The notes: generated from the letters alone by a model not told the origin. A stretch of DNA of 64,000 bases from Alphaproteobacteria bacterium (GCA_016125135.1 WGMJ01000010.1:35885-99884), one strand, 5' to 3'; shown: positions 697 through 15,806, counted from the first letter of the stretch. Program-made: numbers and translations.

Positions 697-1911
697 TTAG
701 CGGGTTGAGGCGATACGGTCGGCAACCGTATCGGCAGTGGCAATATGATCATCCCCATCAGGGGCAATCTCGGGATTGGGGATGGCTGACATCACACGCT
801 CAAATGAAGATGATTGCGATTTCTCCGGTTCATCCTTTGGGGCGCTCTTCATCAAATGCTGGGCATCCATCGCATTGATCTCAGTATTCAGCGCAATTTC
901 CTGCGCTAGTTTTTCTCGGCCTTCGGCAGCTTCACAGCTTAGAATATCTTTTAATCGCTGCTTTTCCTTGGCTGATCCTTCTGCGTGCAGTGATGCCACC
1001 AGATCTGGGTGATCGGTTTTGAGTTGTTCAAGGTTCATGGGCTTTTTCTCCTTTTTCGGTTGAGGTTGGGTTAAACTAAAAAAACCCTCTGGCGGAGGGC
1101 TTTGTGTTTTCGGGGATGAAAGTTCTGTAATCAGGCGTTCTAATGATCCGATGCGATCTGCCAAACCGGCACTGACGGCATTCGCGCCAATCATCACATC
1201 ACCACCGCCGTAATGCTCTAGCACATGATCAGGCGTAACAGATCGGTTGCGGGCAATGGTGGACACAAACACATCGGCCATTGCATCGATACGTGTTTGC
1301 AACTTTGCACGGCCATCATCGCTCATTGGATCAAGACGTTTGTGCGGGCTTTGCGAGGAAACAATCTCAACTGTTTCAGCAGATTCCTTAGCTGATTTTC
1401 CACGGTAAATACCCACCACACCAATTGATCCCAGCGCCGATGTTTCCGATACCACAATTTCATCGGCAGCAGAGGCAATCCAATACGCCCCAGATGCCGC
1501 ATCACCAGACGCATAAGCAATAATCGGCTTTGTGCCGCGTGCCTCAAAAATCATACTGGCCAGTTCCGACACGCCATTGACTTCACCGCCGGGGGAATCA
1601 ATATCCAGAATAATCGAGCTAATTTGCGGGTTTTCAAGGGCGCTCATAAAATCACGCGCAATCAATTCATAACTGGATGCGCCGCTGATGGCTGTGAAGA
1701 TGTTGGCATAGCGAAACAATGGCCCTGTTACAGGAATAATGGCGACACCGTCGCGCTCAGTGGCGTTATAGCTGTTTTGCAATTGACGACCGAGTTTGGC
1801 AGCAACCGCCTCGGGCGCTTCATTCTCACGTGCGGCGACTTCTAAAATTGTGTGCAAGGCTGTTTCGGTAATCGCCCACGGATCACCGGTTATGCGGTTC
1901 CAGATTCTCAT
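697..1911 (-). CDS. S49-family (SppA/ClpP-fold) prohead protease with C-terminal scaffold-like region (gpC-like)
   Basis: The translation has the S49 peptidase core (IDSPGGEV, ASGDAASGAYWIASAADE). The C-terminal third is charged and coiled. It overlaps the end of the portal gene. Confidence 0.85.
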   Translation of the reverse strand: MRIWNRITGDPWAITETALHTILEVAARENEAPEAVAAKLGRQLQNSYNATERDGVAIIPVTGPLFRYANIFTAISGASSYELIARDFMSALENPQISSIILDIDSPGGEVNGVSELASMIFEARGTKPIIAYASGDAASGAYWIASAADEIVVSETSALGSIGVVGIYRGKSAKESAETVEIVSSQSPHKRLDPMSDDGRAKLQTRIDAMADVFVSTIARNRSVTPDHVLEHYGGGDVMIGANAVSAGLADRIGSLERLITELSSPKTQSPPPEGFFSLTQPQPKKEKKPMNLEQLKTDHPDLVASLHAEGSAKEKQRLKDILSCEAAEGREKLAQEIALNTEINAMDAQHLMKSAPKDEPEKSQSSSFERVMSAIPNPEIAPDGDDHIATADTVADRIASTR

Positions 1912-3427
1912 CGTTTTCCTCTTTTTCTTGAGTGTTGGTGTTTAAGATGCTGTTCACATCATTGATTGTCAGGCCAAGTTCTGTGATCTTGGCTTTTTCA
2001 CGGGCAAGCTGTTCCAAGACTTCTTCCCAATCCAAACCTTGGCTGGCACATTCATCCTCCAGCGTGGAAAGACCAATTTGCATACGAAGGTGTGCGGCTT
2101 TAGCTTCTTTCACAGGATCAACCCATCCCCGACCTGGGCCGATCCACTTGCACCGTGTCCATGCGGCCTTGTTCTCATAAAAATCAGGGGCTTCAATCAG
2201 CCCCTTGTTAATCGCTTCTTCTAGCCATAATTCATAAACAGGTCTTGCCCAATAAGTCGCAAGCCATTGACGCTGCGCGGAGAAATATCGCCACGCCTCC
2301 AAGAGTGCCGCGCGTGCGCTTGAATAATTGGTTTTGGAAAAATCCTTCATCAATAATTCAAACGGGATATTCAGACCCGCACCAATATGGCGCAGGACAT
2401 TTTCTACAAACTGGCCGTAACCGCTATTCGGGCGGCTTGGCGTAAAGGGTGCGACTTTATCGCCGGGGAAGATCGGAATAATTGATCCACCCTGCAGGCG
2501 AATATCCCATTCATTACGGGCGGCGAGATAATCTTCAACCGATCCGCCAAACATCTCGCCAATACTTTCACCGTCCAGCGGGGTTTCAATAAATGCCGCA
2601 ATCATGGCATTCACCACCGCCGCCTGAAGCTCTGATCTCTCGTAATGATCGAGCATTTTAAACATCGGCATGATAGAGGTGAGAAGCGGTTTACCGCGAT
2701 GTTGGCCTGTGCGCTCCTTATCATGGATATGCAGAACACGGCGACGACCGAAGCTGGTTGCAAATGGAATACGCTCCCAATCGCTGATATCAACACCAAA
2801 TCCTAAATACGCATCACTGGGATGGCTTTTGCGAATATAATAGGTACGCGGCGCGCCATAGGCATCAATCTCAATCCCAGCGCGAAGATATTTACCATCC
2901 TGCTTGCCGTTGGGGTTACACAGGCGATCTGCCTCCACCAGCTGAATGGCGGTTGCGAATTTTGCGCCTCTGTTTTCAAGCCACAAGGGCAGTGCCAGCG
3001 CTTCACCATTGATAATGCTGGAGCGAAACACGAGGCATGTCATCCCTGCGAAGGTCAGGCTTTTGGCGGCATCACAATCGGTACTTTCTGCCCATGCCCG
3101 CCAGAGGGATTCCGCCCCGCGTGACCATTCATCCGCCCATTTCTTATCTTTGCCCAATGCTCGATAATCAGGCGTTGCCGATAAACGCAAACCCGTACCA
3201 ACCACATTATCGGTGAGTGTTTGCATCGCACCAGCGGCCACGCCATGATTACGGCTTAAATCTCGAGAACGTGATACCAGCGTAGGTAATTCGCCCAGCA
3301 AATCACTATCGGCAGAGCCCAAAGGCGGTAGCCAGCTGGAAAGCTCCCGCGCACGGTGGGATGCCGCGCGATGCGCCGTATCGCTGACTTTAAGCGGGTT
3401 TCCTGCGCTGTCTAAAAGTTGAACCAT
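1883..3427 (-). CDS. Phage portal protein, lambda family
   Basis: 514-aa ORF located between gpW and the protease. The sequence resembles lambda gpB-type portals. Confidence 0.9.
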   Translation of the reverse strand: MVQLLDSAGNPLKVSDTAHRAASHRARELSSWLPPLGSADSDLLGELPTLVSRSRDLSRNHGVAAGAMQTLTDNVVGTGLRLSATPDYRALGKDKKWADEWSRGAESLWRAWAESTDCDAAKSLTFAGMTCLVFRSSIINGEALALPLWLENRGAKFATAIQLVEADRLCNPNGKQDGKYLRAGIEIDAYGAPRTYYIRKSHPSDAYLGFGVDISDWERIPFATSFGRRRVLHIHDKERTGQHRGKPLLTSIMPMFKMLDHYERSELQAAVVNAMIAAFIETPLDGESIGEMFGGSVEDYLAARNEWDIRLQGGSIIPIFPGDKVAPFTPSRPNSGYGQFVENVLRHIGAGLNIPFELLMKDFSKTNYSSARAALLEAWRYFSAQRQWLATYWARPVYELWLEEAINKGLIEAPDFYENKAAWTRCKWIGPGRGWVDPVKEAKAAHLRMQIGLSTLEDECASQGLDWEEVLEQLAREKAKITELGLTINDVNSILNTNTQEKEENDENLEPHNR

Positions 3428-3439
3428 ATTTAAATATCC

Positions 3440-3670
3440 TTAAAAACTGGTGCGGATAATGCCGCGGCGGGCAGATCCGCTTTTCTTGGCGATTTCTGCT
3501 TCAAGCTCGTGAATATAACGCTCCAGTGCCTCAACATTGGCGGCGCTATAGGTGGTTGAGCCATAGCCATGCAAGCTGACGGTCACTTCCTGCGATCCTG
3601 TCAGCAGGCGATGGCGAGCTTCTTTCGCCTGCACCAAGCGACTTTGCAATTCCAGCAATGTGTCGGTCAT
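3440..3670 (-). CDS. Head-to-tail joining protein gpW-like
   Basis: 76-aa ORF between terminase and portal. The ending (...YIHELEAEIAKKSG..RRG) resembles lambda gpW. Confidence 0.65.
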   Translation of the reverse strand: MTDTLLELQSRLVQAKEARHRLLTGSQEVTVSLHGYGSTTYSAANVEALERYIHELEAEIAKKSGSARRGIIRTSF

Positions 3671-3690
3671 ACTTTGCTCCTAGTCTGTCG

Positions 3691-3719
3691 TTGACATTTC
3701 GATGATAAAAAAATATTCT
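3691..3719 (+). promoter_or_regulatory. Sigma70-like promoter for the moron gene: TTGACA, 17-nt spacer, TATTCT
   Basis: TTGACA at 3691-3696, 17-nt spacer, TATTCT at 3714-3719, in an AT-rich gap upstream of the plus-strand ORF. Confidence 0.4.
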
Positions 3720-3863
3720 TGTGTTGGTTTTTCAGAAATTCCCAGCCGCTCGCGGCCATTAGGCTACGGTGAAAATTTCTCAGATATTTTGAAAAGAAAT
3801 TCCAACTTTTTAGGACTTTCTTAATGCGAGCAAAGAAACAAAGTCCCAGAAAGTTTGAATAAA

Positions 3864-4292
3864 ATGTCTATACCTACAAAAGAAAGCCTTAAGCAAAAGG
3901 CAAAAACTGTCCGTAAATTTCTAAACGATAAATACCAAGTGGATGTTTCTCATGGTCACTGCATGGAAATCATATCGCAAGTCCTTGGTTTTAAGGACTG
4001 GAATACGGCGTCTGCCTCATTGAAACCCAAAGCCAAACAAGACCTATTACCAATTCACATCAAAACAGTTGGAGATATGAGGAAAGCATTGGCGTTATAT
4101 GATGACGACACAGCGATTTTTGACGGTGAGTACGAATTCAAAATTCAGAATTTTATCAACGACATTGATGCTGAAGATTGGGACAAGGACACCATCCTTA
4201 CCCAAGAATTCAGCCTTGTTCTCGAAGAGTTTGTTCCTGACATTGCCAGCTTTAAATTAAAAATCGAGCATGAGAGTCTCACCTTCTTTTAA
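3864..4292 (+). CDS. Hypothetical protein; AT-rich moron on the opposite strand to the packaging genes
   Basis: ORF track 3855..4292; the ATG at 3864 is preferred. The N-terminus (KQKAKTVRKFLNDKYQVDVSHGHCMEIISQVLGFKDWNTA) resembles a short helical domain seen at the N-terminus of proteins often annotated as glyoxalase-superfamily. The gene is visibly lower in GC than its flanks. Confidence 0.65.
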   Translation: MSIPTKESLKQKAKTVRKFLNDKYQVDVSHGHCMEIISQVLGFKDWNTASASLKPKAKQDLLPIHIKTVGDMRKALALYDDDTAIFDGEYEFKIQNFINDIDAEDWDKDTILTQEFSLVLEEFVPDIASFKLKIEHESLTFF

Positions 4293-4322
4293 GAAGCAAC
4301 TTTCTACATAGAAATCTCCTTT

Positions 4323-6338
4323 TTATAAATATGGATCATCGGCCCGCACGGCTTTACGTTGTGGGACGGTGATCCTTGTCTTGGTTTCAGGTTTTGAAGG
4401 TTCAAATTTGGTTTCTTCCGTCACCGGCATTTCCACACCTTTGGTTGGAATAATCACCTCTTGCCCGAGACTTTTTTCCAAAGCCCGCCATTTATAATCA
4501 GACATGCGATCCAGCCCATAAATGCTGGCTGCTGCCCGCGCATACACACGGCAGTCCAAGGCTTCGTTGTTACGGCTTGGGTCTTTTTCCCAAACTTGGC
4601 GGGGAAAACCGCGCACCACACGTGTAATACAACGCTCTGCCGTGAGCTGTTTGAAAAACTCCTCGCCATATTGCGGGAAGTGACAACTGCCGGGCGGATA
4701 CGCCACGCCATCTTCCAAATCTTTATCGGTTGGCCATTCCAATTTTAACCAGCGATAAAGCTCCATCTTCGCCACGGGGCCAGAGACGTTCCAGACCCGA
4801 AGACCTCGGCGTTTTCCGCCCGTATCGGCTTTGGATACGCTCAAGATCAGTGCGGTATTGCGCTCTTGTCCTTTGATCGCCACCACGGTACGTGGCTGGC
4901 TGGCACGAGCGCCCGAGCCACCCCAAACGGCCTGCGGGTGTTGGCGCACAAAGGCATAAACATCCTGCGTGGCATAACCGGAATCCACCGCCATCACCCG
5001 AATGGGGAGGCTGTGACCAGAGGCGTGAGGCCAGTCACGCTCTAACACCTCCGTTGAAAGGCGATCCCATGTTTCTTGGCGGGCAGTATCCCCATCTATG
5101 ATGATGTAATCCACCGACCAGTTTTGTTTGTTACGTCCCCAAGCGACCACCTCACATTCAAGACGGTCTTTTTGTACATCCACACCAGCGGTGAGGAATA
5201 AACCGCCCATCGGCACAATGCCTTGGCTGTATTTTTCACGGCGTTCATAAATGCGTTGCCATTCTGGTGCTTCGGATGATTCCTCATAAGGCTCACCCAG
5301 CACCGTATTGACAAAACCCTTCATGAGATCAGGGTTGCGTTTTGCTTCTTCAAACAGCGTTGCTGCATCCGACCAGCTAAACCACCCCACAGGGCTGTAA
5401 AGCGATGATAAATGATAGCCAACCGTGCCATCCACACTTTCCGCCGTTGCCCGCCATTCGCCTTTGGAAAGCAGTAAGGTTTTCTCATGATTATGCATGA
5501 GATGCCCGCAGGCTTCACAGGTATATTTGGCTTCGTCCGGCTCGCCTTCAGGCCAGCGTAGCTGCGTAAAGCGCAAATGCTGGTAATGACCACACTTTGT
5601 GCAAGGAACAAAAAAATAGCGCTGATCGCTTTTTTCAAACTCACGCTGTACACGGGATATTCCTTTCACTGTTGGCGTACTCACCATAAAAATCTTACGG
5701 CGCAGGCGGAATGTCGCGCTTCGGCGTTCTGCCAGCAGGATCGGATCACCTTCGCCGCCAACATCGCCTGGATACGCATCAATCTCATCCATGAACAAAT
5801 ACCGCGCAGGCATGGAACGCAGACCCGCCGCCGAATTTGCGCCAGTCATAATCAATAGACCGCCATCAAACTCTTTGCTTAGAATCGTGTTTCCGCTATC
5901 CCGCTCACGGGCAGGCTTCACACGCTCACGTAAGGCAGGCGTTTCCTGCAACAACGGTTCAATCCGCTGTTTGGAATTACGTTTGGCAAGCTCTACCGTT
6001 GGCGACACCGCCATCATCGGCCCAGGCGCCATATGGATTATATAGCCAATCCAGTTATTACCGGCTTCTGTACCGCCAACCTGTGCACCCTTCATAAACA
6101 CAATGCGCTGAGCGGGCGAGCTGGTCGAAAGCTGGTTCATTACCTCCTTGAGGTATGGCGTGCGGGCAGTTTTCCATTCACCTGGTTCTGCCGAGGATTT
6201 GCCCGATAACAGCCGATATCTATCGGCCCAATCGGCAACATCATAATGCGGTTCTGGGGTAAAACTTTTGAGGTAGACGTTTTGAACAAATGCTGCGTCA
6301 TACTCAATCGAAATTGAGTTTTCCCTCTCCAATGTCAT
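4323..6338 (-). CDS. Terminase large subunit (lambda gpA family)
   Basis: 671-aa ORF with a Walker A-like segment (KGAQVGGTE) and the gpA-type zinc motif region (CTKCGHYQ...CEACGH). Confidence 0.95.
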   Translation of the reverse strand: MTLERENSISIEYDAAFVQNVYLKSFTPEPHYDVADWADRYRLLSGKSSAEPGEWKTARTPYLKEVMNQLSTSSPAQRIVFMKGAQVGGTEAGNNWIGYIIHMAPGPMMAVSPTVELAKRNSKQRIEPLLQETPALRERVKPARERDSGNTILSKEFDGGLLIMTGANSAAGLRSMPARYLFMDEIDAYPGDVGGEGDPILLAERRSATFRLRRKIFMVSTPTVKGISRVQREFEKSDQRYFFVPCTKCGHYQHLRFTQLRWPEGEPDEAKYTCEACGHLMHNHEKTLLLSKGEWRATAESVDGTVGYHLSSLYSPVGWFSWSDAATLFEEAKRNPDLMKGFVNTVLGEPYEESSEAPEWQRIYERREKYSQGIVPMGGLFLTAGVDVQKDRLECEVVAWGRNKQNWSVDYIIIDGDTARQETWDRLSTEVLERDWPHASGHSLPIRVMAVDSGYATQDVYAFVRQHPQAVWGGSGARASQPRTVVAIKGQERNTALILSVSKADTGGKRRGLRVWNVSGPVAKMELYRWLKLEWPTDKDLEDGVAYPPGSCHFPQYGEEFFKQLTAERCITRVVRGFPRQVWEKDPSRNNEALDCRVYARAAASIYGLDRMSDYKWRALEKSLGQEVIIPTKGVEMPVTEETKFEPSKPETKTRITVPQRKAVRADDPYL

Positions 6339-6804
6339 TTAAATGCTCCCTCACATAGCGCTCTAACGCCTGATGAAGAGCGTGTTCATCAATGCCAAGT
6401 TCAGCAGCCATCAAGGCCGACACACGCGCAGGCCAATTCATCCAGCTATCCCGAACCTGCCGCCCCAGGCGATAGACTTGCGTCTTCACCATGTCTTTGT
6501 TGATGAGCTGTCCTTTCTTTTCCTGCAGGGCGAGCTGCGTTAGCTGCGCCTTGTAAAGCTCATGTGCGGTTTTGATTTTGGTAAACGATGGCTTGCCATT
6601 TGCTGCGGGCATATTTTCGGTCATCACAGGCAGGCCAGTATTGATTTTGGCTTCATCGGTGTTTTCTTTCCATTCACGATCCGCCCGTTCCACATCAATT
6701 GTGCCATCCTCATTCGGCGTGATGCGCCCAGAGCTGATGGCTTTACGCACTGCGCCCTCGGTCACACCGCGAAGCGTGGCGTATTTCCTGATTGAAAGTC
6801 CCAT
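6304..6804 (-). CDS. Terminase small subunit (HTH-containing)
   Basis: 166-aa ORF immediately upstream of TerL and overlapping it. It has an N-terminal HTH (LSIRKYATLRGVTEGAVRKAISSGRI). Confidence 0.7.
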   Translation of the reverse strand: MGLSIRKYATLRGVTEGAVRKAISSGRITPNEDGTIDVERADREWKENTDEAKINTGLPVMTENMPAANGKPSFTKIKTAHELYKAQLTQLALQEKKGQLINKDMVKTQVYRLGRQVRDSWMNWPARVSALMAAELGIDEHALHQALERYVREHLNDIGEGKLNFD

Positions 6805-6887
6805 ATTCTCTCACTTTTTAAGGATTGTTGACTTGATAAGCGTTTGAATTGAAGCGTTCATGGACATCACAACAGAAAGGAAAACCC

Positions 6888-7145
6888 ATGACAAAACAAA
6901 GCAAAAAACCAATCGAAACAACAACGGAAACCACCGCCGAGCCAGCGCCAAAAATCACCAAGAAAGCCTTGGTTGAACAACTGCTCAAATCCGATAAAGG
7001 TGCAACAATTGAGGAGCTATCCAAACAAACCGGCTGGCAAGCCCACACCGTGCGCGGGCATCTCTCCATTCTCAAAAAAGCAGGTGCAAATATCACCAGC
7101 GAACGTGTTGATAGCGTGCGGTACTATCGCATCATCACCGCCTAA
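6888..7145 (+). CDS. DUF3489-like small protein
   Basis: The C-terminal part (GATIEELSKQTGWQAHTVRGHLS.LKKAG) matches the DUF3489 signature from memory. The ATG at 6888 has the RBS gaaaggaaaa upstream. Confidence 0.6.
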   Translation: MTKQSKKPIETTTETTAEPAPKITKKALVEQLLKSDKGATIEELSKQTGWQAHTVRGHLSILKKAGANITSERVDSVRYYRIITA

Positions 7146-8404
7146 GAAGCACGCTCCTCAGCCAAAACTTCAAAGCTCTGGTCACTTTTGGCCAGAGTTG
7201 CTTTCTTACCCGTAAATTCCTCCCAGCGTTTGACGATCACATCGACATATTTTGGATCAAGCTCGATCAATCTGGCGCGACGACCTGTTTTTTCGCAAGC
7301 GATCATGGTTGATCCCGAACCGCCAAAGGCATCCAGCACAATATCCTTGGTTTTGCTGGAATTATGAATGGCACGCTCCACCAGCTCCACTGGCTTCATG
7401 GTGGGGTGCAGGTCATTCTTCACGGGCTTGTTCACAAACCAAACATCGCTTTGATCCCGCGCACCACACCAGAAATGCTCATGCCCATCTTTCCAACCAT
7501 AAAGGATCGGCTCATACTGGCGTTGATAATCGGCACGCCCCAGCGTGAAGGTGTTTTTCGCCCAGATGATAAAGGTTGACCATTTGCCACCTGCGCCGAC
7601 AAAAGCGCCGTGCAGGGTGTGAAGCTCGGACGAGCTCATGCACACATACATCGCGCCTTTGCAGACCATCATCAGGTTGGTGCAAACATCATAGAGAAAA
7701 TCGCCAAAGCCATCGCCCAGATTATCGTTTTGGATCGGGCGGGCTTTACCACGCATTTTGTCTTTCATCGAATTGGCGTAATTCACATTATAAGGCGGAT
7801 CGGTAAAGACCATGTCGGCCAGTTCTTCACCCATCAGGGCATTGTAACTGTCGATCATTGTGGAATCTCCACACAAAACTTTATGATCACCACAAATCCA
7901 TATATCGCCAAGGACACTGACAGGCGTTTCTGGCACTTCTGGCGCGGCATCTTCATCAGTCAAACCGCCAGAGGCATTGGCATCATCCAAGAACAGGTTA
8001 TCCAATTCTTCGGCATTAAAGCCCAGCAGATCGATATTGAAATCCAGATCTTCCAGCGCCGATAATTCCTCACGCAACAGGCTTTCATCCCAACCGGCAT
8101 TCTCGGCGATTTTGTTATCGGCAATCACCAGCGCGCGGCGCTGTGCCTCATTCAAATGATTAAGGCGAATGGTCGGCACGTTTTTCATGCCCAACAGTTT
8201 CGCCGCCATTAAACGCCCATGCCCTGCGATGATGATATTATCATCCCCCAGCAGAATGGGATTCACAAAACCGAATTCCGTCATCGAGGCAGCAATCTGC
8301 GACACCTGCGTATCGGAATGCGTGCGGGCATTTTTGGTATACGGGATCAGCTCATCAACCGATACATGCTCGATTTTCAATTCTTTAGATTTTGCATCAG
8401 TCAT
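7142..8404 (-). CDS. ParB-like nuclease N-terminal domain fused to an N6-adenine/N4-cytosine DNA methyltransferase (orphan)
   Basis: ParB-N motifs (PYTKNARTHS, IIAGHGR), the DPPY catalytic motif (FTDPPYNVNY) and a C-terminal SAM motif (VLDAFGGSGST). The ATG at 8404 has the SD ggagga upstream. Confidence 0.9.
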   Translation of the reverse strand: MTDAKSKELKIEHVSVDELIPYTKNARTHSDTQVSQIAASMTEFGFVNPILLGDDNIIIAGHGRLMAAKLLGMKNVPTIRLNHLNEAQRRALVIADNKIAENAGWDESLLREELSALEDLDFNIDLLGFNAEELDNLFLDDANASGGLTDEDAAPEVPETPVSVLGDIWICGDHKVLCGDSTMIDSYNALMGEELADMVFTDPPYNVNYANSMKDKMRGKARPIQNDNLGDGFGDFLYDVCTNLMMVCKGAMYVCMSSSELHTLHGAFVGAGGKWSTFIIWAKNTFTLGRADYQRQYEPILYGWKDGHEHFWCGARDQSDVWFVNKPVKNDLHPTMKPVELVERAIHNSSKTKDIVLDAFGGSGSTMIACEKTGRRARLIELDPKYVDVIVKRWEEFTGKKATLAKSDQSFEVLAEERAS

Positions 8405-8409
8405 GGTTT

Positions 8410-9606
8410 TTATTTTCCTCCATTTGCTGCAGTTGTAAGAACGCCCCACGCATGAGCGGCAGCCAATGGGACGACACCGTTTCCACAGGCGCGAATTCTG
8501 TCCACCCGATTGGCCAGCCCATCAGCCATTCGACAAATTGCGGGTTTAAGACCGGCTGGGATTCCGTCCCAATCGCCTTCGGGTCCGGGTGGGAATGGCA
8601 AACAGCTTCCACATTCAATGGCTTGGTGTTCCGCACAAACTGGCTCGGCCCCGCATTGTTTTTGGAATCCTGCGCCGTCACGGTCGGCCACATGATCTGT
8701 TCCCGTAAATTGCTTGGGCGGGATCTGCCTGCACGCTGGCCGTTTGGCCCCATCAGCTTGTCCATCGCCTCGGGCGATCTCACAGGCAGATGATCCAGCG
8801 TGTTCGGCGTTGCCCAATTGACCGATGTCTCCGCCAATCCTTTCTGCGATGAATTCGGGCCGCGTTTCTTGAAATCTTGTGCCGTCGGCGTCGGCCAATT
8901 CACCACCGATACTTCCAGACGGCATTTCGGATTGTTGTTCTGGATTTCCCTCTGGCACGGGCCGTTCGCAGAAGAGACACGGACTGTCGGCCAGAGATGC
9001 TTCACCTGATCCCGCAGGCTCAAGGGCATGCCCGCATCCATCCGTTCTTTGAATTTCTCTGAGCTCAGACAGCCACCCGTTGGCTCGGTCGCTTTCACGG
9101 TACGCCAAAATGAAGAGGCGCTCGCGTTTGTGAGTGCTACCAACTTCCGCCGCTGAGAACAGGCCTGCCTTAACGCTGTAACCCAATTCTCGAAGGTCAT
9201 CATGGACTTGTTCGAACCCCAATCGTAAATGTCCGGGGACGTTTTCAAAGAAGCAGAGCCGTGGGCGTATCTCCCGCACAATCCTGTACACATCTGGCCA
9301 GAGGTGGCGCGGGTCATCTTTGCCTTTTTGTTTTCCAGCAACGGAGAATGGCTGGCACGGATATCCCGCAGTGATGCAATCCACGATGTCACGCCACGGC
9401 TTGCCGTCAAAGGATCGTAAATCCGTCCAAACAGGCGCTTCGTCCAGGATTTTGTCTTCCATGCGCGTTGCCAGGATTTCGCACGCAAAGGCTTCGATCT
9501 CGACAAAACAGACTGCTCGAGCATTTGGCTGCGCCACTCGGATGCCGAGGTCGAGTCCGCCGACACCGGCGCACAAGGACAAAATGTTAAGGGGACAATA
9601 ATCCAC
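8410..9606 (-). CDS. DNA (cytosine-5)-methyltransferase, frame A. A second same-strand frame (8397..9614) is also fully open and carries MTase-like motifs, so a frameshift or dual coding is possible.
   Basis: Frame A carries LSLCAGVGGLDLG (motif I), GYPCQPFS (IV), ENVPG (VI), HKRERLFIL (VIII) and RVDRIRACGNGVVP (X-like). A GTG at 9606 has the RBS aaggaa. See the findings for frame B. Confidence 0.7.
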   Translation of the reverse strand: MDYCPLNILSLCAGVGGLDLGIRVAQPNARAVCFVEIEAFACEILATRMEDKILDEAPVWTDLRSFDGKPWRDIVDCITAGYPCQPFSVAGKQKGKDDPRHLWPDVYRIVREIRPRLCFFENVPGHLRLGFEQVHDDLRELGYSVKAGLFSAAEVGSTHKRERLFILAYRESDRANGWLSELREIQRTDGCGHALEPAGSGEASLADSPCLFCERPVPEGNPEQQSEMPSGSIGGELADADGTRFQETRPEFIAERIGGDIGQLGNAEHAGSSACEIARGDGQADGAKRPACRQIPPKQFTGTDHVADRDGAGFQKQCGAEPVCAEHQAIECGSCLPFPPGPEGDWDGIPAGLKPAICRMADGLANRVDRIRACGNGVVPLAAAHAWGVLTTAANGGK

Positions 9607-9807
9607 AAATTCAAATTCCTTTTTTGTAGTCAGGTACGCATGAGTACGCGCCAAGGTACGCACCTTGAACACGTTGCTCTGACTGGTTTTTTGATGAATG
9701 GCGGTGGGGCGCGTACCCAAAAAAATCTTCTGGCGCTAAAAAACTCCTGCGCCTAAGCCCGCCGCATAGGGTTCAATCGCCGGAAGTACCTTTTTTGCTA
9801 TAACAGG

Positions 9808-10036: not shown

Positions 10037-10345
10037 ATGGTATCACTTATAACACCAGCGAAAGCGCAAAAAAAGCTCGCAGAACAAGCGCGAGCACGGC
10101 GTCTGCAAATGGAGTTAACGCAAGAAGGTCTTGCTGAGCGTTCTGGCGTCGCCTTGCCAACGCTTCGTAAGTTTGAGCGTACCGGCGCGCTATCTCTGGA
10201 ATCATTCCTCAAACTTCACATGGTGCTTGGTGGATTGGAGGACATCCTTAAAGCCACGCAAGTCAAAGATACGCTTTTCTCATCGATTGATGACGTGTTG
10301 GAAGCAGACAGCAATCCCACCCGCAAAAGAGGAAAACGTAAATGA
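10037..10345 (+). CDS. hipB: HipB-like XRE-family antitoxin
   Basis: HTH segment LTQEGLAERSGVALPTLRKFERTG. The 3' end overlaps the hipA start by 4 nt (ATGA). Confidence 0.8.
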   Translation: MVSLITPAKAQKKLAEQARARRLQMELTQEGLAERSGVALPTLRKFERTGALSLESFLKLHMVLGGLEDILKATQVKDTLFSSIDDVLEADSNPTRKRGKRK

Positions 10346-11571
10346 GCGAGATTAAATCAGTCAAAGAAGTGAAGGTTGGCATTAACTTTGGAAGTAGCGT
10401 TCAGCCTGTCGGGCGTTTGGCCATTCGAGATCGCCAGATCTATTTCGAGTATGATCAATCCTTCATTGAAGGCGGTCTTGAAATTTCGCCCTTATGGTTA
10501 CCGCTTAAATCTGGTGTGCAGAACTTTGATTATGATCTTTTTGAAGGCTTGCCAGGTGTGTTTAACGACAGCCTGCCTGATGGTTGGGGACGGTTGCTGT
10601 TTGATCGTTTTGCCCGCACTCAAGGAATATTGCCAGCCAACATCACACCGCTGGATCGTTTGGCACATGTGGGATCACATGCCCTGGGTGCGCTTGTGTT
10701 TGAACCTGACCATAGCGCAGACGACACACAAGGTGACATAAGCCTTGATAACCTTGCTTTACTGGCACAAGAGGTTCTGGACGGCACATCGGATGACGTA
10801 TTGGCGGAGCTGATAGCCTTGAATGGATCTTCGGCGGGCGCACGGCCAAAAGCACTGATTGGTGTAAACGACAAACGGGATCATATCATTCATGGTGTAC
10901 ATGATTTACCCGCAGGGTATGCGCCATGGATGGTTAAATTCCCGAATAGTCAGGATGGCCTTGATGCTGGTGCAATCGAATATGTGTATGCGCTGATGGC
11001 GAAAGAGGCAGGCGTTTCCATGCCCGATGTTCATCTTTTCCCAGCACAGCGCGGCGCAGGTTATTTTGCGATTAAGCGGTTTGATCGTGATGGTGACAAG
11101 CGATACCACATGCATACGGCTTGCGGATTATTGCATTCGGATTTCCGCACACCATCGCTTGATTATGAAGATTTGATCGCGTTGACTGGCATGCTGACCC
11201 GTGATGTTCGCGAGGTTGAAAAACTCTATCAACTGGCCGTGTTTAACGTGTTGGCGCATAACCGTGACGATCATTCAAAGAACTTCAGCTATTTGATGGA
11301 TAGTCAAGGCGGGTGGAAACTTTCACCGGCTTATGATCTGACATTCTCATCTGGCCCACGCGGTGAGCAAAGCACGATGGTTATGGGTGAAGGTAGAAAT
11401 CCAAATACAAGCCATCTGTTAAAACTGGCCGATGAAGCGAAAATCAAAAAAGACCGCGCCGCCGAGATTATTGAGGCCACAAAATCCAGCCTGTCCAAAT
11501 GGCCAACACTTGCAAAGCAATATGGCGTGAGCGATACGAACATTAAGCTGATTACTGATAAAATTGCATAA
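10342..11571 (+). CDS. hipA: HipA-family serine/threonine kinase toxin
   Basis: 409 aa. N-terminal coupling domain (LPGVFNDSLPDGWG) and kinase core (NRDDHSKNFS, PAYDL). Confidence 0.9.
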   Translation: MSEIKSVKEVKVGINFGSSVQPVGRLAIRDRQIYFEYDQSFIEGGLEISPLWLPLKSGVQNFDYDLFEGLPGVFNDSLPDGWGRLLFDRFARTQGILPANITPLDRLAHVGSHALGALVFEPDHSADDTQGDISLDNLALLAQEVLDGTSDDVLAELIALNGSSAGARPKALIGVNDKRDHIIHGVHDLPAGYAPWMVKFPNSQDGLDAGAIEYVYALMAKEAGVSMPDVHLFPAQRGAGYFAIKRFDRDGDKRYHMHTACGLLHSDFRTPSLDYEDLIALTGMLTRDVREVEKLYQLAVFNVLAHNRDDHSKNFSYLMDSQGGWKLSPAYDLTFSSGPRGEQSTMVMGEGRNPNTSHLLKLADEAKIKKDRAAEIIEATKSSLSKWPTLAKQYGVSDTNIKLITDKIA

Positions 11572-12665: not shown

Positions 12666-13382
12666 TTAAAACATCCATTTCACACCAACAGTACCGACAA
12701 CCGCATCGTTGTCTTCACCATTACTTTTGGCAATTGACGAGGTTTCACCAAATTTTCGCTCGTATTTCACATCAACATAAGGTGCAAATGCTCTGGTGAA
12801 CTCATAACGGGTTTGTAAGCCAAGTTCCGCACTGGACAACCCAGCACCCACCTCAAGCTCCGGCACATCCTGAGCAAACAGATTTGCCTCAACATAAGGC
12901 TGGGTGATCAGTTTTTGCGTGATGAGGAACTCGTTTTCCTGACGAATACGCGCACTCACATCACCATCTTCACTGACAAACAAATGGGCTTCGGTTTCAA
13001 AGAAATACGGTGCAAGCCCCTCAAAGCCGATCACCCCATAGGTTAGTGAATCAGGTTGCGTATCATGGCGAACACCAATCTGTGCATCCCAAAACGCCCC
13101 GATATTGCGGCTATACATCGCCCAGAACTCAGCTTGATTGGTGACACCGTTTTCTCGTTCGCCTTCGGATTTTAACCAGAGCTTATTTTCATCTGTACCG
13201 ATCCAGCCGTCAAAGTCCCAATCGGCAAGTCCAGCGCCGTCATCTGTGCCACCCAAACCTGTTTCCAAGCGAAAGGCGTGATAGACAGCGCCACCATGTT
13301 CGTCACCTGCAAATGCAGGCGTTGCCAGGGTTGAAAGTGTTGTGGCACATAATGCCACGAGCATAAGTTTCTTAATGAGCAT
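12666..13382 (-). CDS. copB: Copper resistance protein B (outer-membrane CopB/PcoB family)
   Basis: Signal peptide and a beta-barrel-like sequence ending in ...VGVKWMF. It overlaps the end of copA. Confidence 0.85.
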   Translation of the reverse strand: MLIKKLMLVALCATTLSTLATPAFAGDEHGGAVYHAFRLETGLGGTDDGAGLADWDFDGWIGTDENKLWLKSEGERENGVTNQAEFWAMYSRNIGAFWDAQIGVRHDTQPDSLTYGVIGFEGLAPYFFETEAHLFVSEDGDVSARIRQENEFLITQKLITQPYVEANLFAQDVPELEVGAGLSSAELGLQTRYEFTRAFAPYVDVKYERKFGETSSIAKSNGEDNDAVVGTVGVKWMF

Positions 13383-15264
13383 GATTGTGCCCTCCTTGAG
13401 TGTCTTGTTGTTTTGTGTAGGCTGAATGATCCATGGTCGGCATATCGCCGCTCATATCATGGTTGTCATGGTTCATTTGTGAATGATCCATTTTGCTGTG
13501 ATCCATCGCGCCATGATCCATATTTTCCATTGAGTGCTTTTGATGATCCATCATCTTTTGCGCTTTAGGAGAATAGGATTTAACAGGCACTTGTGATGTG
13601 TCTAACTTAGCAACGACAACCTTGTTCATCATTCCTGCCATCATGTGATAGAGCAAGTGACAGTGGAATGCCCACTCACCAGCTTCATCCGCCGTTAAGA
13701 GAACAGAATAAGTGTCACCCGGAGCCACTATCACAGTATGCTTATTAGGAAGTTTGGACATAGGCTGCCCGTTTTCAAGCTGTACAAACATGCCATGTAA
13801 ATGCATCGGATGCGCCATCATTGTGTCATTGATGAAGGTTAACCGAACACGTTCCCCGTAACTCAAGTTAATTGGTCCGGAGTCTTCATATTTCTTCCCA
13901 TTGAGCGTCCAAATATAGCGCTCCATGTTACCACCCAGACGAACTGTGATTTCACGCTCCGGCATACGTTGGTCTTTTTGAATGCCCGCATAGCGCAAAT
14001 CTTTATAGCTAAGCGCTTTCTGGCCTGCAGGTGTATTCGCATTAGCCCAACCACTGCCCGGAACACCTGTGACAAAATCTTTAGCAGGAGATCCAGTTGT
14101 GTTGGCAGTATGTGACCCATGATCCATAGAATCCATGTCATGGCCATTATGATTCATTTGACCGTGACCCATACTGGAATGATCCATTCCAGACATATCA
14201 TGATCCATGCCCATATCCGCCATTGTCAGTAAGCTCATCGGACGTTGTGCGGGCTTCTCACCACGCATACCATTCTGTGGAGCTAGTGTTGCCAAAGCAA
14301 ACCCTGTGCGATCAATAGGTTCTGCCGCAATGGTGTAGGCTTTATCCTCTTTAGGCTCGACAATCACATCATAGGTTTCAGCAACGCCAAAGCGGAATTC
14401 ATCAACTTTGACTGGTTCAACAGGCTGACCATCCGCAGCCACAACCGTCATTTTAAGTCCGGGGATACGAACATCATAAAACGACATGGCAGAAGCATTG
14501 ATAAAACGAAGACGAACCTTTTCACCGGGTTTGAATAATCCTGTCCAGTTCTGATCAGATGTTTTGCCGTTTACAAGAAAGGTGTAATTGCTGATATCTG
14601 CCAAATCCGTTGGCAGCATCCGCATTTCACCCCACATCTTCGCATTTTCCCATGCTTTGCCAAAACCATCTTTTTTGGCGCTTGAGAAGAAATCTCCTAA
14701 CGTTCTTCGAACATAGACGTAGTATTCTGATGATTTTTTCAAATTAGACATGATGGTATTCCCTTCATCGTCATGAAAATCAGAGAGAAGTACGACATAG
14801 TCGCGGTCTGTTTTGATTTTATCGCCGCCTTTGGGATGGATAATGATAGAGCCGTAATGCCCGTCTTGTTCCTGCGCCATAGAGTGGGCGTGATACCAGT
14901 ACGTACCGTCCTGACGTATTTTGAAGCGATAGGTAAAGGTTTCACCGGGTTTAATCCCGGGGAAGCCGTTAAAATTCGGTACACCATCCATTTCACCGGG
15001 GAGTAAAAGCCCATGCCAGTGAACCGAGCTATCTTCCTTCATTTTATTGGTGACATGAATAACGGCCTCATCACCATCGGTAAATTCCAGAGTTGGCCCC
15101 GGAATAGTACCGTTGATGGTAATGCGTTTGAGAGGTTTTCCTGTGATATTCACGGTCTCTTTATCGATCACCAGTGAATATTCTTGAGTTTTGGCAAAAG
15201 CAGGAGCGCTTAATCCTAATATTAGCCCCATGATTGCCAGCATTTTTGCTGTTTGTTTGATCAT
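13372..15264 (-). CDS. copA: Copper-resistance multicopper oxidase CopA/PcoA
   Basis: MCO copper ligand motifs (HWHG, WYHAH, HPMHLHG, HCHLLYHMMAGM) plus Met/His-rich MDH repeats. Confidence 0.95.
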   Translation of the reverse strand: MIKQTAKMLAIMGLILGLSAPAFAKTQEYSLVIDKETVNITGKPLKRITINGTIPGPTLEFTDGDEAVIHVTNKMKEDSSVHWHGLLLPGEMDGVPNFNGFPGIKPGETFTYRFKIRQDGTYWYHAHSMAQEQDGHYGSIIIHPKGGDKIKTDRDYVVLLSDFHDDEGNTIMSNLKKSSEYYVYVRRTLGDFFSSAKKDGFGKAWENAKMWGEMRMLPTDLADISNYTFLVNGKTSDQNWTGLFKPGEKVRLRFINASAMSFYDVRIPGLKMTVVAADGQPVEPVKVDEFRFGVAETYDVIVEPKEDKAYTIAAEPIDRTGFALATLAPQNGMRGEKPAQRPMSLLTMADMGMDHDMSGMDHSSMGHGQMNHNGHDMDSMDHGSHTANTTGSPAKDFVTGVPGSGWANANTPAGQKALSYKDLRYAGIQKDQRMPEREITVRLGGNMERYIWTLNGKKYEDSGPINLSYGERVRLTFINDTMMAHPMHLHGMFVQLENGQPMSKLPNKHTVIVAPGDTYSVLLTADEAGEWAFHCHLLYHMMAGMMNKVVVAKLDTSQVPVKSYSPKAQKMMDHQKHSMENMDHGAMDHSKMDHSQMNHDNHDMSGDMPTMDHSAYTKQQDTQGGHNHAH

Positions 15265-15353
15265 TGTTTAATCCTTTTTCTTAGTTTGAATGCATCTATT
15301 CAGCAATTCTCACGCATGAGAAACGCTTTTCAGATGATGTAGAATAAAAAGGA

Positions 15354-15761: not shown

Positions 15762-15806
15762 GTTCTCAATTATACGCTTTTCTTGTTAATTGTCCATAAA
15801 GGGCTG

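What the first reader, a model, noticed from the sequence alone, without database searches (positions are those of the whole stretch)
8397..9614. C5-methyltransferase locus open in two same-strand frames for about 1.2 kb, with MTase-like motifs in both
- **Frame A (8410..9606):** carries motifs I, IV, VI and VIII (LSLCAGVGG, GYPCQPFS, ENVPG, HKRERLFIL) and a C-terminal motif X-like segment, ADGLANRVDRIRACGNGVVP (8467-8526).
- **Frame B (8397..9614, offset by 1 nt):** looks meaningless for its first roughly 165 codons. It then reads LWPTVRVSSANGP, NWPTPTAQDFKKRGP, NWATPNTLDH, MWPTVTAQDSKNNAGP and LNPQFVEWLMGWPIGWTE (8496-8549). These WPTPxAxD repeats and the NPxFxEWLMGxPxGWT ending are ones I recognise from phage-type C5-MTases.
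- **Same nucleotides, two readings:** 8881-8903 encode ELADADG in frame A and NWPTPTA in frame B.
- **Why this is unusual:** out-of-frame readings normally hit a stop within a few dozen codons, yet neither frame has one across the gene. In the middle of the gene, frame B codons (CCG, ACG, GAT, AAT, TTG) look more like the neighbouring phage genes than frame A codons (GCC, GAC).
- **Possible explanations:** a frameshifted pseudogene or assembly error (A to B near 9090, possibly back to A near 8500), programmed frameshifting, or genuinely dual-coding DNA.
Basis: seen in the sequence. Interest (0 to 1): 0.66.

Follow-up and report, generated by a model that had tools for sequence, protein, structure and literature searches.

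The report
Two-frame, two-subunit phage cytosine methyltransferase gene
One 1.2-kb stretch of prophage DNA is read in two overlapping frames that each encode part of a single DNA cytosine methyltransferase, an arrangement kept by selection in at least 123 related loci and known experimentally from only one enzyme, M.EcoHK31I.

Summary
On the minus strand, frame A (9606..8410) and frame B (9608/9614..8397, shifted +1 nt) are both open for about 400 codons.

It is not an error of this window. Of 161 homologous loci, 123 show the same complete two-frame layout. Among 541 other long ORFs from the same DNA, only 0.7% have an open +1 frame.

Substitution patterns show that selection follows A, then B, then A:
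- **Frame A** is constrained over motifs I-VIII (9606-9094).
- **Frame B** is constrained over the WPTP-repeat region and motif IX (about 9107-8496).
- **Frame A** is constrained again over the 'PPGP' segment and motif X (8595-8413).
- **Both frames** are constrained in the last ~60 codons.

Frame A therefore encodes the large catalytic domain with an unconstrained but stop-free linker. Frame B encodes the target-recognition (small) domain behind a long leader.

The best reading is two polypeptides (alpha and beta) started from adjacent start codons (TTGTG, 9608-9604), as shown experimentally for M.EcoHK31I. Pseudogene and assembly error are refuted. A doubly frameshifted single chain is unlikely. 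No protein-level evidence was obtainable, and two structure predictions failed.

The parts
9617..9621 (-). Shine-Dalgarno-like AAGGA. It lies 8 nt upstream of the frame-B TTG (9608) and 10 nt upstream of the frame-A GTG (9606).
   Evidence: Read directly from the sequence. Comparable SD-like motifs sit ahead of the paired starts in homologs and in E. coli PT62, where GGAGG precedes GTGAATG.
9604..9608 (-). Twin start codons TTGTG. The frame-B TTG is at 9608-9606 and the frame-A GTG at 9606-9604, sharing G9606.
   Evidence: The 'NTGTGG' form (B start, then A start 2 nt later) occurs in the window's relatives. The 'NTGNATG' form (A start, then B ATG 4 nt later) occurs in Rhodobacterales-type, E. 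coli and metagenomic loci. In every distinct sequence context printed for the 125 loci that carry the conserved frame-B W motif, a frame-B start lies 1-2 codons upstream. Use as a start site is inferred, not shown.
8410..9606 (-). Frame A ORF (putative alpha subunit, 398 aa). It holds motifs I-VIII, a linker, a 'PPGP' segment and motif X. Stop TAA is at 8412-8410.
   Evidence: More than 7000 database relatives; full-length relatives at 42-92% identity.
8397..9608 (-). Frame B ORF (putative beta subunit, 403 aa from TTG 9608; the ORF listing gives TTG 9614). It holds a leader, WPTP-repeat target-recognition region, motif IX and a tail helix. Stop TGA is at 8399-8397.
   Evidence: Zero frame-B stops over the N-terminal region in 127 of 129 loci, against 3.3% of control ORFs.
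9094..9606 (-). Segment under frame-A selection: the catalytic large-domain core with motif I (9582-9556), IV PCQ (9366-9343), VI ENV (9246-9232) and VIII (9132-9106).
   Evidence: Aligns to M.HhaI residues 12-173 at E = 1.3e-17 and stops there. In the window-versus-L001 comparison, differences in codons 61-180 fall mostly at frame-A third positions (14 of 18; 3 amino-acid changes in A, 15 in B). The same pattern appears in 65 homologs.
9108..9608 (-). Frame-B leader, the '+1 shadow' of the catalytic domain. It is kept stop-free and its sequence is largely dictated by frame A, but it is partly constrained.
   Evidence: openness; 35% of frame-A fourfold sites are invariant here, against 3% of frame-B fourfold sites in the middle (p = 0.002); 31% of B residues are invariant, against 72% for A.
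8550..9107 (-). Segment under frame-B selection: the target-recognition region with W(P/A/R)T repeats. W codons start at 9107 (WRT), 8993, 8897, 8816 and 8690.
   Evidence: Window versus L001: 35 of 41 differences in codons 181-360 fall at frame-B third positions (5 amino-acid changes in B, 36 in A). In 65 homologs the frame-B third position has pi of 0.2-0.3, against 0.01-0.11 for the other two positions. The same repeats are in frame with the rest of the enzyme in single-frame relatives such as P0287.
8596..9093 (-). Frame-A linker. It is free to vary in sequence (13% invariant residues) but is kept free of stops.
   Evidence: Shuffles expect 3.05 stops on average (5.9 in this window), with a mean P of none of 0.058; the loci that were tested had been selected for an intact frame A and show none. 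The unselected figure is 123 of 161 loci with the full layout. Three variant loci (L023, L130, L141) show 4-14 stops here, which is what absence of selection looks like.
8496..8549 (-). Frame-B motif IX, LNPQFVEWLMGWPIGWTE, followed by a tail helix (8495-8400) with conserved W..WL..MR..L spacing.
   Evidence: Invariant in frame B across 65 homologs. A profile of the IX-to-X stretch from single-frame relatives finds only the DRM cytosine methyltransferase (4onj, 4onq) in the PDB, aligning to its motifs IX and X. That hit is weak, E = 0.3.
8413..8595 (-). Frame-A C-terminal module: FPPGP..W..LKPAICRMADGLANRVDRIRACGNGVVPLAAAHAW (motif X at 8526-8467).
   Evidence: Near-invariant in 17 diverse relatives. 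Homologous to the in-frame C-termini of P0228, P0200, P0298, P0302 and P0308.
8400..8595 (-). True dual-coding zone. The same nucleotides carry selected residues in both frames.
   Evidence: In the 65-sequence set, all 15 nt of frame-A WPPGP (codons 314-318) are invariant although the stretch lies inside the frame-B-selected region. Frame B stays invariant to codon 350. Frame-A synonymous sites are frozen at frame-B tail-helix positions 359, 362, 363, 366, 367, 370 and 373. About half of the fourfold sites of both frames are invariant here.
8402..8404 (-). ATG of the downstream ParB_N/N6_N4 methyltransferase gene (8404-7142). It lies 5 nt after the frame-A stop and overlaps the end of frame B (ATGACTGA).

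Best explanation
This is a phage or prophage DNA (cytosine-5) methyltransferase whose parts are encoded in two co-extensive reading frames of one stretch of DNA. It is most likely made as two polypeptides that assemble into one enzyme.

**Frame A (alpha).** It supplies the large catalytic domain. Motifs I-VIII lie at the N-terminus and the motif X helix at the C-terminus. They are joined by a linker of about 165 residues whose sequence does not matter but which must stay free of stops.

**Frame B (beta, +1).** It supplies the small domain: the WPTP-repeat target-recognition region and motif IX. This follows a leader of about 165 residues that overlaps the catalytic domain.

**Initiation.** One ribosome-binding site appears to serve two start codons 2 nt apart (TTGTG, 9608-9604), so both chains would come from the same mRNA.

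**Shown:** both ORFs and their family-wide conservation; the A-to-B-to-A switch of purifying selection; dual constraint in the last ~60 codons; conservation of a frame-B start next to the frame-A start.

**Inferred:** that two separate proteins are made; that they start at the twin starts; that they form a heterodimer; that the enzyme protects phage DNA from restriction.
For: 1. **Conserved architecture.** 123 of 161 loci have frame A open from motif I to X and frame B open through motif IX. They come from many Alphaproteobacteria, viral contigs and other lineages. The same layout occurs in E. coli prophages and Paenibacillus phages.

2. **Control.** Only 0.7% of 541 other long ORFs from the same DNA have an open +1 frame. 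Only 3.3% are open over the first 170 codons, against 127 of 129 for this family.

3. **Selection by codon position.** In 65 gapless homologs the most variable position is A3 in codons 1-180, then B3 in codons 181-320, then A3 again from codon 341. The window versus L001 shows the same.

4. **The frame-A linker is kept open without amino-acid constraint.** Shuffles expect 3-6 stops. Only 13% of its residues are invariant, against 72% in frame B.

5. **Interleaved constraint.** Frame-A WPPGP (codons 314-318) lies upstream of frame-B motif IX (334-350), and the frame-B tail helix lies inside frame-A motif X. No single chain could contain all of these.

[quoted passage not shown] That is exactly the A/B split seen here. 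Frame-A homology to M.HhaI ends at motif VIII.

7. **Start codons.** Frame-B starts are conserved beside frame-A starts across distant lineages.

8. **Experimental precedent.** In M.EcoHK31I the beta chain lies in another frame inside the alpha gene and both chains are needed for activity. Removing the beta start codons with changes silent in alpha abolishes methylation. The first 42 or more beta residues are dispensable (PMC2836561).
Against: - There is no protein-level evidence for either product here.
- Both AlphaFold attempts on an A/B/A chimera gave poor models (pLDDT 53 and 56). The claim that the three selected segments form a canonical fold rests on motifs and on homology to single-frame relatives.
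- The motif IX assignment has only a weak PDB hit behind it (E = 0.3). Pfam, NCBIfam and PADLOC do not recognise frame B.
- The order of selected segments, A then B then A, is also what a single frameshifted chain would need.
- Three loci have a closed frame-A linker and a separate small ORF for motif X, so covalent continuity of alpha is not essential.
- Rare in-frame fusions of the frame-A N-terminus with frame B exist (P0174, P0253, P0269, L153).
- In Firmicutes phages and actinophages frame B starts internally, so the twin start may not be the site used. Why a 165-residue leader is kept remains unexplained.
Confidence: 0.7

Rival explanations
1. One polypeptide is made by two programmed ribosomal frameshifts, +1 near 9090 and -1 near 8500. 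This would give a canonical single-chain methyltransferase with motifs I-VIII, target-recognition domain, IX and X.
For: - The selected segments follow the canonical order.
- Single-frame relatives with this order exist, for example P0287.
- In some relatives (L023, L130, L141, L161 and the actinophages) frame A ends soon after motif VIII while frame B continues.
Against: - A frameshifted chain needs neither the frame-B leader nor the frame-A linker to be open, yet both are kept stop-free far beyond chance.
- Frame-A and frame-B constraints interleave over about 60 codons, so one chain cannot hold them all.
- No slippery heptamer or shift-prone stop is conserved at the first junction. In this window frame A runs on for about 225 codons past it. 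Where frame A does stop, the contexts differ and the first WPT repeat lies upstream of the stop.
- The large 2016 review of frameshifting does not mention DNA methyltransferases.
Confidence: 0.1
2. Two polypeptides are made, but beta starts at an internal frame-B start codon rather than at the twin start. Candidates are ATG 9317, 9293 and 9203/9200. The upstream openness of frame B would then have another cause.
For: - Frame B starts internally in Paenibacillus phage Shelly gp56, in the actinophages and in L167.
- The beta N-terminus of M.EcoHK31I is dispensable, and internal Met codons can serve as starts.
- Frame-B conservation is stronger from about codon 120 onward.
Against: - Frame B is open from the twin start in 127 of 129 proteobacterial-type loci, against 3.3% of control ORFs.
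- In several loci an in-frame stop lies directly before the frame-B ATG, so the ORF begins exactly there.
- The NTGNATG pattern is shared by E. coli, metagenomic and alphaproteobacterial loci.
- Frame-A synonymous sites are constrained in all three thirds of the N-terminal region.
Confidence: 0.15
3. The locus is a frameshifted pseudogene or a sequencing or assembly error in this window.
For: Isolated family members do look damaged. L029 comes from a nanopore MAG, L153 is another, and the E. coli PCP07014 copy is flagged 'internal stop'.
Against: - The same two-frame layout occurs in 123 of 161 independent loci, including isolate genomes such as Paracoccus and E. coli PT62.
- Each frame is under purifying selection in its own segment.
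- No close homolog carries all motifs in one frame.
Confidence: 0.01
4. Only frame A is functional. Frame B is an untranslated relic whose motifs persist by chance or through frame-A constraint.
For: Gene callers and curated models recognise only frame A.
Against: - In the middle 140 or more codons the variable position is the frame-B third position.
- There, 72% of frame-B residues are invariant against 13% of frame-A residues.
- Frame A lacks any target-recognition domain or motif IX under selection.
- The frame-B domain is homologous to in-frame domains of other methyltransferases.
Confidence: 0.03

Closest known systems
M.EcoHK31I (E. coli HK31, YGGCCR), a heterodimeric C5 methyltransferase with overlapping alpha and beta genes
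   Same: - The alpha chain carries motifs I-VIII and X.
[quoted passage not shown]
- Both chains are needed for activity, and beta has its own start codons.
- The beta N-terminus is dispensable (PMC2836561; PMC3404938).
   Different: - As described, its target-recognition domain is on alpha and beta is a short chain nested inside alpha.
- Here the region under selection between motifs VIII and X is read in frame B, so beta carries the recognition region.
- Here beta is co-extensive with alpha, starting 2 nt before it and ending 13 nt after it.
- Sequence relatedness to M.EcoHK31I could not be tested, because its sequence was not on hand and the 1995 paper is not held.
M.AquI (CYCGRG), a two-subunit C5 methyltransferase
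   Same: The enzyme is split between motif VIII and motif IX into two polypeptides (PMC3404938). Relatives of this locus such as L161/P0302, P0308 and Arthrobacter phage KHumphrey gp42/gp43 have this division, with I-VIII on one chain and recognition region, IX and X on the other.
   Different: In the window, motif X stays with frame A. The two ORFs overlap over their whole length instead of being consecutive.
Monomeric bacterial C5 methyltransferases (M.HhaI, M.HaeIII; Pfam PF00145, TIGR00675)
   Same: Frame-A residues 6-171 align to M.HhaI 12-173, covering motifs I-VIII including the catalytic PCQ.
   Different: The second half of these profiles (variable region, IX, X) is never matched in frame A. 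Motif IX is in another frame.
Long overlapping genes shown by purifying selection, such as the 957- and 1536-nt antisense ORFs of Pseudomonas aeruginosa (PMC8850804)
   Same: A long alternative-frame ORF is conserved and under purifying selection inside an annotated gene.
   Different: - Here the overlap is on the same strand (+1) and the two ORFs are co-extensive.
- Both products appear to be parts of one enzyme.
- Constraint is mostly partitioned: where one frame is selected, the other serves as a spacer.
Programmed frameshift genes (prfB +1; dnaX and phage tail chaperone G/GT -1)
   Same: Two frames of one mRNA contribute to the protein output.
   Different: There is no conserved shift site. 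The zero frame does not end at the junction. The alternative frame is open from the 5' end.

Membership tests
Heterodimeric C5 methyltransferase with an alternative-frame beta chain (M.EcoHK31I type) | The alpha ORF carries motifs I-VIII and X but no motif IX. | tested here: met
   Motifs I, IV, VI and VIII align to M.HhaI and PF00145. Motif X (RIRACGNGVVP) is invariant in relatives. No motif IX-like segment under selection lies in frame A.
Heterodimeric C5 methyltransferase with an alternative-frame beta chain (M.EcoHK31I type) | A second ORF in another frame of the same DNA carries motif IX. | tested here: met
   Frame B (+1) carries LNPQFVEWLMGWPIGWT, which is invariant in homologs. Its assignment as motif IX rests on in-frame relatives and on a weak PDB match to motifs IX and X of DRM (E = 0.3).
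Heterodimeric C5 methyltransferase with an alternative-frame beta chain (M.EcoHK31I type) | Beta is translated from its own start codon. | not testable with these tools
   Indirect only: the frame-B start is conserved beside the frame-A start and frame B is open from there.
Heterodimeric C5 methyltransferase with an alternative-frame beta chain (M.EcoHK31I type) | Both polypeptides are required for methylation. | not testable with these tools
   Needs expression and methylation assays.
Heterodimeric C5 methyltransferase with an alternative-frame beta chain (M.EcoHK31I type) | Sequence homology to M.EcoHK31I alpha and beta. | not tested
The original paper, PMC306636, is not held.
Single-chain C5 methyltransferase (PF00145 / TIGR00675) | Motifs I-X and the variable region lie in one polypeptide. 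| tested here: not met
   Curated profiles match only their first half in frame A. The variable region and motif IX under selection are in frame B.
Programmed ribosomal frameshift gene | A conserved slippery sequence or shift-prone stop lies at the frame junction. | tested here: not met
   Junction sequences differ between subfamilies and frame A has no stop there. Where stops do occur in variant loci, their contexts are not conserved.
Programmed ribosomal frameshift gene | The product uses each nucleotide in one frame only. | tested here: not met
   Residue-specific constraint in both frames spans about 60 shared codons.
Pseudogene or assembly artefact | The disruption is private to this sequence, and intact homologs are in one frame. 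| tested here: not met
   123 of 161 loci share the layout.
Overlapping protein-coding genes (dual coding) | Both ORFs are conserved, and synonymous variation is reduced where both are functional. | tested here: met

The most novel reading that the evidence does not exclude
The whole 1.2 kb is translated twice from twin start codons served by one ribosome-binding site. Two co-extensive chains of about 400 residues result, and each uses the other's functional segment as a stop-free spacer. The frame-B 'shadow' of the catalytic domain would itself be functional, at least over motifs IV-VIII, where its reading is conserved between distant phages. If so, nearly the entire gene is dual-coding. With 6859 representative clusters at 50% identity, this would be one of the longest and most widespread same-strand overlapping gene pairs known in bacteria and their viruses. 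It is largely hidden in databases as 'hypothetical protein', 'internal gene' or 'pseudogene'.
Probability: 0.35. Interest if true: 0.85.

Novelty: new variant of a known kind. Interest (0 to 1): 0.68.

Why it matters
**Overlapping genes.** Same-strand overlaps of more than a kilobase under demonstrable selection are very rare in prokaryotes and phages. This one comes with hundreds of natural replicates and with natural 'unpicked' variants: a closed linker with a separate motif X ORF, motif X moved into frame B, single-frame enzymes, and in-frame fusions. That makes it a good system for asking how overlapping genes arise and how constraint is shared between frames.

**Annotation.** Curated models see only half an enzyme in frame A. 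Frame B is called 'hypothetical', 'internal gene' or a second 'DNA methylase'. Damaged-looking copies are called pseudogenes. As a result, methyltransferase catalogues for prophages are systematically incomplete.

**Enzymology.** M.EcoHK31I may be the one characterised member of a very large class of two-chain phage cytosine methyltransferases. In that class the recognition module, with 2-6 WPTP repeats and many indels, can vary on a separate chain.

**Testability.** Intact copies exist in complete E. coli genomes (PT62, LP5-1), so the model can be tested directly.

Tried and rejected
- **Structure, first attempt.** AlphaFold2 on a window chimera (frame-A N-terminus, frame-B middle, frame-A C-terminus) with a 24-row alignment gave pLDDT 53 and a wrong all-helical catalytic domain.
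- **Structure, second attempt.** A 74-row mixed alpha and beta alignment gave pLDDT 56, equally unusable. No fold search was run on these models.
- **Curated libraries.** Pfam and PDB sequence searches with single-frame beta-type proteins found nothing. NCBIfam and PADLOC do not know frame B.
- **Context look-ups.** P0228 was not on record. P0200 looked like a non-overlapping split gene pair, but its frame is open about 115 codons upstream into the alpha gene, so it is not a clean unoverlapped case.
- **Computations.** The first shuffle script timed out. Per-codon diversity around the start codons was confounded by indels. The count of '140 of 143 loci with paired starts within 8 nt' discriminates poorly, because NTG codons are common. 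I rely on the position-specific pattern instead.
- **Nucleotide searches.** Searches of phage, E. coli and plasmid records found only the ~70-nt dual-coded stretch.
- **Literature.** Searches found no description of this family beyond M.EcoHK31I and M.AquI. The 1995 M.EcoHK31I paper is not held.


Full report
**1. The observation**

On the minus strand, the ORF listing gives two overlapping ORFs, 8410..9720 and 8397..9614.
- Frame A most likely starts at GTG 9606, giving 398 aa.
- Frame B is frame A shifted by +1 nt. It ends 13 nt after frame A, overlapping the ATG (8404) of the next gene.

Frame A matches PF00145, TIGR00675 and PADLOC cytosine-methylase models, but only over its first ~175 residues and only the first half of each profile. 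It aligns to M.HhaI residues 12-173 (E = 1.3e-17), and the alignment stops at motif VIII.

Frame B matches no curated model. It does match phrog_1008 'DNA methyltransferase' at 3.8e-26. It has 1292 relatives in the large protein set and 6859 representative clusters in the 1.84-billion-protein library.

**2. Not an accident of this window**

I fetched 160 homologous loci, 80 from genomes and 80 from viral contigs. They share 39-88% identity in frame A and come mostly from Alphaproteobacteria and their prophages.
- In most loci the +1 frame has no stop over the whole gene of about 380 codons, while the +2 frame typically has 7-25.
- 123 of 161 loci, counting the window, meet the full definition: frame A open from motif I to motif X, frame B open through motif IX, and the two stops close together.
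- As an empirical control I took 541 other ORFs of at least 300 codons from the same loci and the window. Only 0.7% have an open +1 frame, and 3.3% are open over the first 170 codons. The mean is 2.8 stops per 100 codons.
- Synonymous-codon shuffles of the window expect 2.6 frame-B stops in the N-terminal part and 5.9 frame-A stops in the middle.

**3. Which frame is under selection where**

Sixty-five unique homologs of equal length (85-92% nucleotide identity) align without gaps.
- **Codons 1-180:** nucleotide diversity is highest at the frame-A third position.
- **Codons 181-320:** it is highest at the frame-A first position, which is the frame-B third position (0.20-0.32, against 0.01-0.11 for the other two).
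- **Codons 321-340:** it is equal at all three positions.
- **Codons 341-360:** it is low at all three positions.
- **Codons 361-380:** the frame-A third position is again the most variable.

At single-codon resolution the first switch is sharp, at codons 172-175, just after motif VIII.

The window's own lineage shows the same pattern. Against L001 (94.6% identical):
- 14 of 18 differences in codons 61-180 are at frame-A third positions, with 3 amino-acid changes in A and 15 in B.
- 35 of 41 differences in codons 181-360 are at frame-B third positions, with 36 changes in A and 5 in B.

Invariant residues are 72% (A) against 31% (B) in the N-terminal part, and 13% (A) against 72% (B) in the middle.

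**4. Both 'unused' stretches are still kept open, and the end is truly dual-coding**

The frame-A linker changes freely in sequence and length yet lacks the 3-6 stops expected. Three loci (L023, L130, L141) show what relaxed selection looks like.
- Frame A has 4-14 stops in the middle.
- Frame B remains intact.
- A small frame-A ORF with its own SD and ATG encodes only the 'PPGP..RVDRLRLCGNGVVP' module.

In the last ~60 codons, constraints from the two frames interleave.
- All 15 nt of frame-A WPPGP (codons 314-318) are invariant, although they lie inside the frame-B-selected region.
- Frame-B motif IX (codons 334-350) is invariant.
- Frame-A synonymous sites are frozen exactly at the frame-B tail-helix positions W359, W362, L363, M366, R367, L370 and L373.
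- About half of the fourfold sites of either frame are invariant there, against 3% for frame-B fourfold sites in the middle.

A single chain cannot contain both readings of the same nucleotides. This argues against a doubly frameshifted product.

**5. What the two frames encode**

In solved C5 methyltransferases the large domain holds motifs I-VIII and X. The small domain holds the variable (target-recognition) region and motif IX (PMC3404938).

The selected parts of frame A are exactly the large-domain elements. The selected part of frame B is a repeat-built variable region (W-P/A-T-P-x-A-x-D, 2-6 copies among homologs) followed by LNPxFVEWLMGWPxGWT.

Relatives that carry these pieces in one frame confirm what they are.
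- P0287 has motifs VI-VIII (a PF00145 hit), WPTP repeats, the IX-like segment and 'LMALGNSVCP', all in one frame.
- P0228, P0200, P0298, P0294, P0273, P0302 and P0308 have repeats, then IX, then a 'P..PRV' segment, then 'R.R.LGN..VP' in tandem.
- A profile of that IX-to-X stretch finds only the DRM cytosine methyltransferase structures in the PDB. It aligns to their motif IX (PLEPDEVEMLLGFPKNHT) and motif X (RTDRYKSLGNS). The E-value of 0.3 is weak, so this is supportive only.

**6. Start codons**

In the window an AAGGA (9621-9617) precedes TTGTG (9608-9604). That pentamer contains the frame-B TTG and the frame-A GTG, sharing one base. Relatives of the window have GTGTGG, TTGTGG or ATGTGG at this spot.

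The Rhodobacterales-type loci, an E. coli prophage and a metagenomic phage instead have NTGNATG, with the frame-A start first and a frame-B ATG 4 nt later. In several loci a stop lies directly in front of the frame-B ATG. One ribosome-binding site serving two starts is therefore the simplest reading. This is an inference.

In Paenibacillus phages (gp56, annotated 'g55 internal gene'), in the actinophages (two adjacent 'DNA methyltransferase' CDSs, the second in the +1 frame) and in L167, frame B begins inside frame A. An internal start therefore cannot be excluded for the window.

**7. The frame-B leader is not quite free**

- 35% of frame-A fourfold sites in codons 9-170 are invariant, against 3% of frame-B fourfold sites in the middle (Mann-Whitney p = 0.002).
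- The frame-B reading across frame-A motifs IV-VIII is conserved between a metagenomic phage (L167) and phage Shelly (LTLFP..PGS..MTVTSG.K..GSLVRMLL..LFRLVPS.PRT.GTE).
- Even the 'normal-looking' N-terminus of P0302 (MSWLYSQALVE...) is the +1 reading of a complete catalytic domain.

Whether this leader has a function is unexplained.

**8. Mechanism and rivals**

I judge two polypeptides the most likely mechanism (0.7). Alpha is the large domain with a linker, and beta is the small domain with a leader. They would assemble as in M.EcoHK31I.

For that enzyme, the literature shows the following (PMC2836561):
- The beta chain lies in another frame within the alpha gene.
- Both chains are required for activity.
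- Removing the beta start codons with changes silent in alpha abolishes methylation.
- The beta N-terminus is dispensable.

The rivals fare as follows.
- **Single chain made by +1 and -1 frameshifts (0.1).** It would explain the A-B-A order. It would not explain the open spacers, the interleaved constraints, the conserved frame-B start or the lack of any conserved shift site.
- **Pseudogene or assembly error.** Refuted.
- **Frame B as an untranslated relic.** Refuted.

**9. Context**

The gene heads a minus-strand block of phage genes:
- the C5 methyltransferase;
- a ParB_N/N6_N4 methyltransferase (8404-7142);
- small and large terminase subunits;
- portal protein;
- head protease.

A role in protecting phage DNA from host restriction is the usual one for such orphan phage methyltransferases. 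That is my inference from general knowledge and was not tested.

**10. Known or new**

The principle, a C5 methyltransferase with motif IX on a second chain read from another frame of the same DNA, has been known since M.EcoHK31I. Annotators of some phages have marked an 'internal gene' or two 'DNA methylase' genes. E. coli copies are annotated as frame A only or as a pseudogene.

I found no paper that describes any of the following:
- the family as a whole;
- the co-extensive overlap;
- the placement of the recognition region on the frame-B chain;
- the partition of selection between the frames;
- the twin starts.

I therefore class it as a new variant of a known kind.

**Limits**

- No protein-level data were available.
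- Both structure predictions failed.
- The fine selection map comes from a subfamily about 45% identical to the window, backed by one close pair for the window itself.
- Homology to M.EcoHK31I itself is untested.

Noticed in passing
window 7142-8404 (-): The gene directly downstream is a fusion of a ParB N-terminal domain with an N6/N4 DNA methyltransferase (PADLOC MTase_II at 9e-176). Its ATG at 8404 overlaps the end of frame B (ATGACTGA). The phage therefore carries two methyltransferases in tandem just before its terminase genes.
   Followed up: partly
window 10037-11571 (+): A HipB-like HTH gene (10037-10345) and a HipA kinase toxin gene (10342-11571; HipA_C at 2e-48) lie divergently, right next to the methyltransferase operon at the edge of the phage block.
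   Followed up: partly
window 6849-7145 (+): A DUF3489/HTH ORF lies on the opposite strand, between the minus-strand ParB-methyltransferase gene and the small terminase gene.
   Followed up: no
window 13372-16916 (-) and 20085-21443 (-): A multicopper oxidase, an ArsP-type permease and, further on, a large serine integrase lie here. The phage genes at 697-9606 may be one end of a larger integrated element.
   Followed up: no
L158 (IMGVR_UViG_3300027852_000079), about nt 2970-4278: An HNH-endonuclease-like ORF is inserted in frame B right after motif IX, and the end of motif IX is duplicated. Frame A nevertheless stays open across the whole ~170-codon insertion and still ends in motif X.
   Followed up: partly
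L023, L130, L141: This is a variant architecture. Frame A has 4-14 stops after motif VIII and frame B is intact. A small frame-A ORF of about 90 aa, with its own SD and ATG ('MGN...'), encodes only the PPGP and motif X module.
   Followed up: yes
L161 (P0302 locus), nt 813-2289: A 491-aa 'hypothetical protein' has an ordinary-looking N-terminus (MSWLYSQALVE...). That N-terminus turns out to be the +1 reading of a complete, uncalled catalytic domain (motifs I-VIII, about 180 aa) that starts 4 nt upstream of it. Here motif X is in frame B.
   Followed up: yes
L153 (IMGVR_UViG_3300049784_000010): The frame-A N-terminus is fused in frame to the frame-B region. The sequence contains a THTHTHTH run (a CA-type simple repeat), and motif X lies in the third frame. 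This could be an error or a slippage-prone variant.
   Followed up: no
L166 (E. coli PCP07014) and L170 (E. coli PT62): E. coli prophages carry a short version of the same two-frame gene. PGAP calls the PCP07014 copy a pseudogene ('internal stop'). It annotates only frame A (WP_230069165) in PT62, where frame B (258 aa, MSWLFSQALAEEY...LNPQWVEWFMGWPIGWT) is fully open.
   Followed up: partly
L165 (Paenibacillus phage Shelly), L163 (Arthrobacter phage KHumphrey), L164 (Mycobacterium phage Twister): Public phage records already hint at the arrangement. Shelly gp56 is noted as 'g55 internal gene'. The actinophages have two adjacent 'DNA methyltransferase' CDSs, the second in the +1 frame and carrying the recognition region, motif IX and motif X.
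   Followed up: partly
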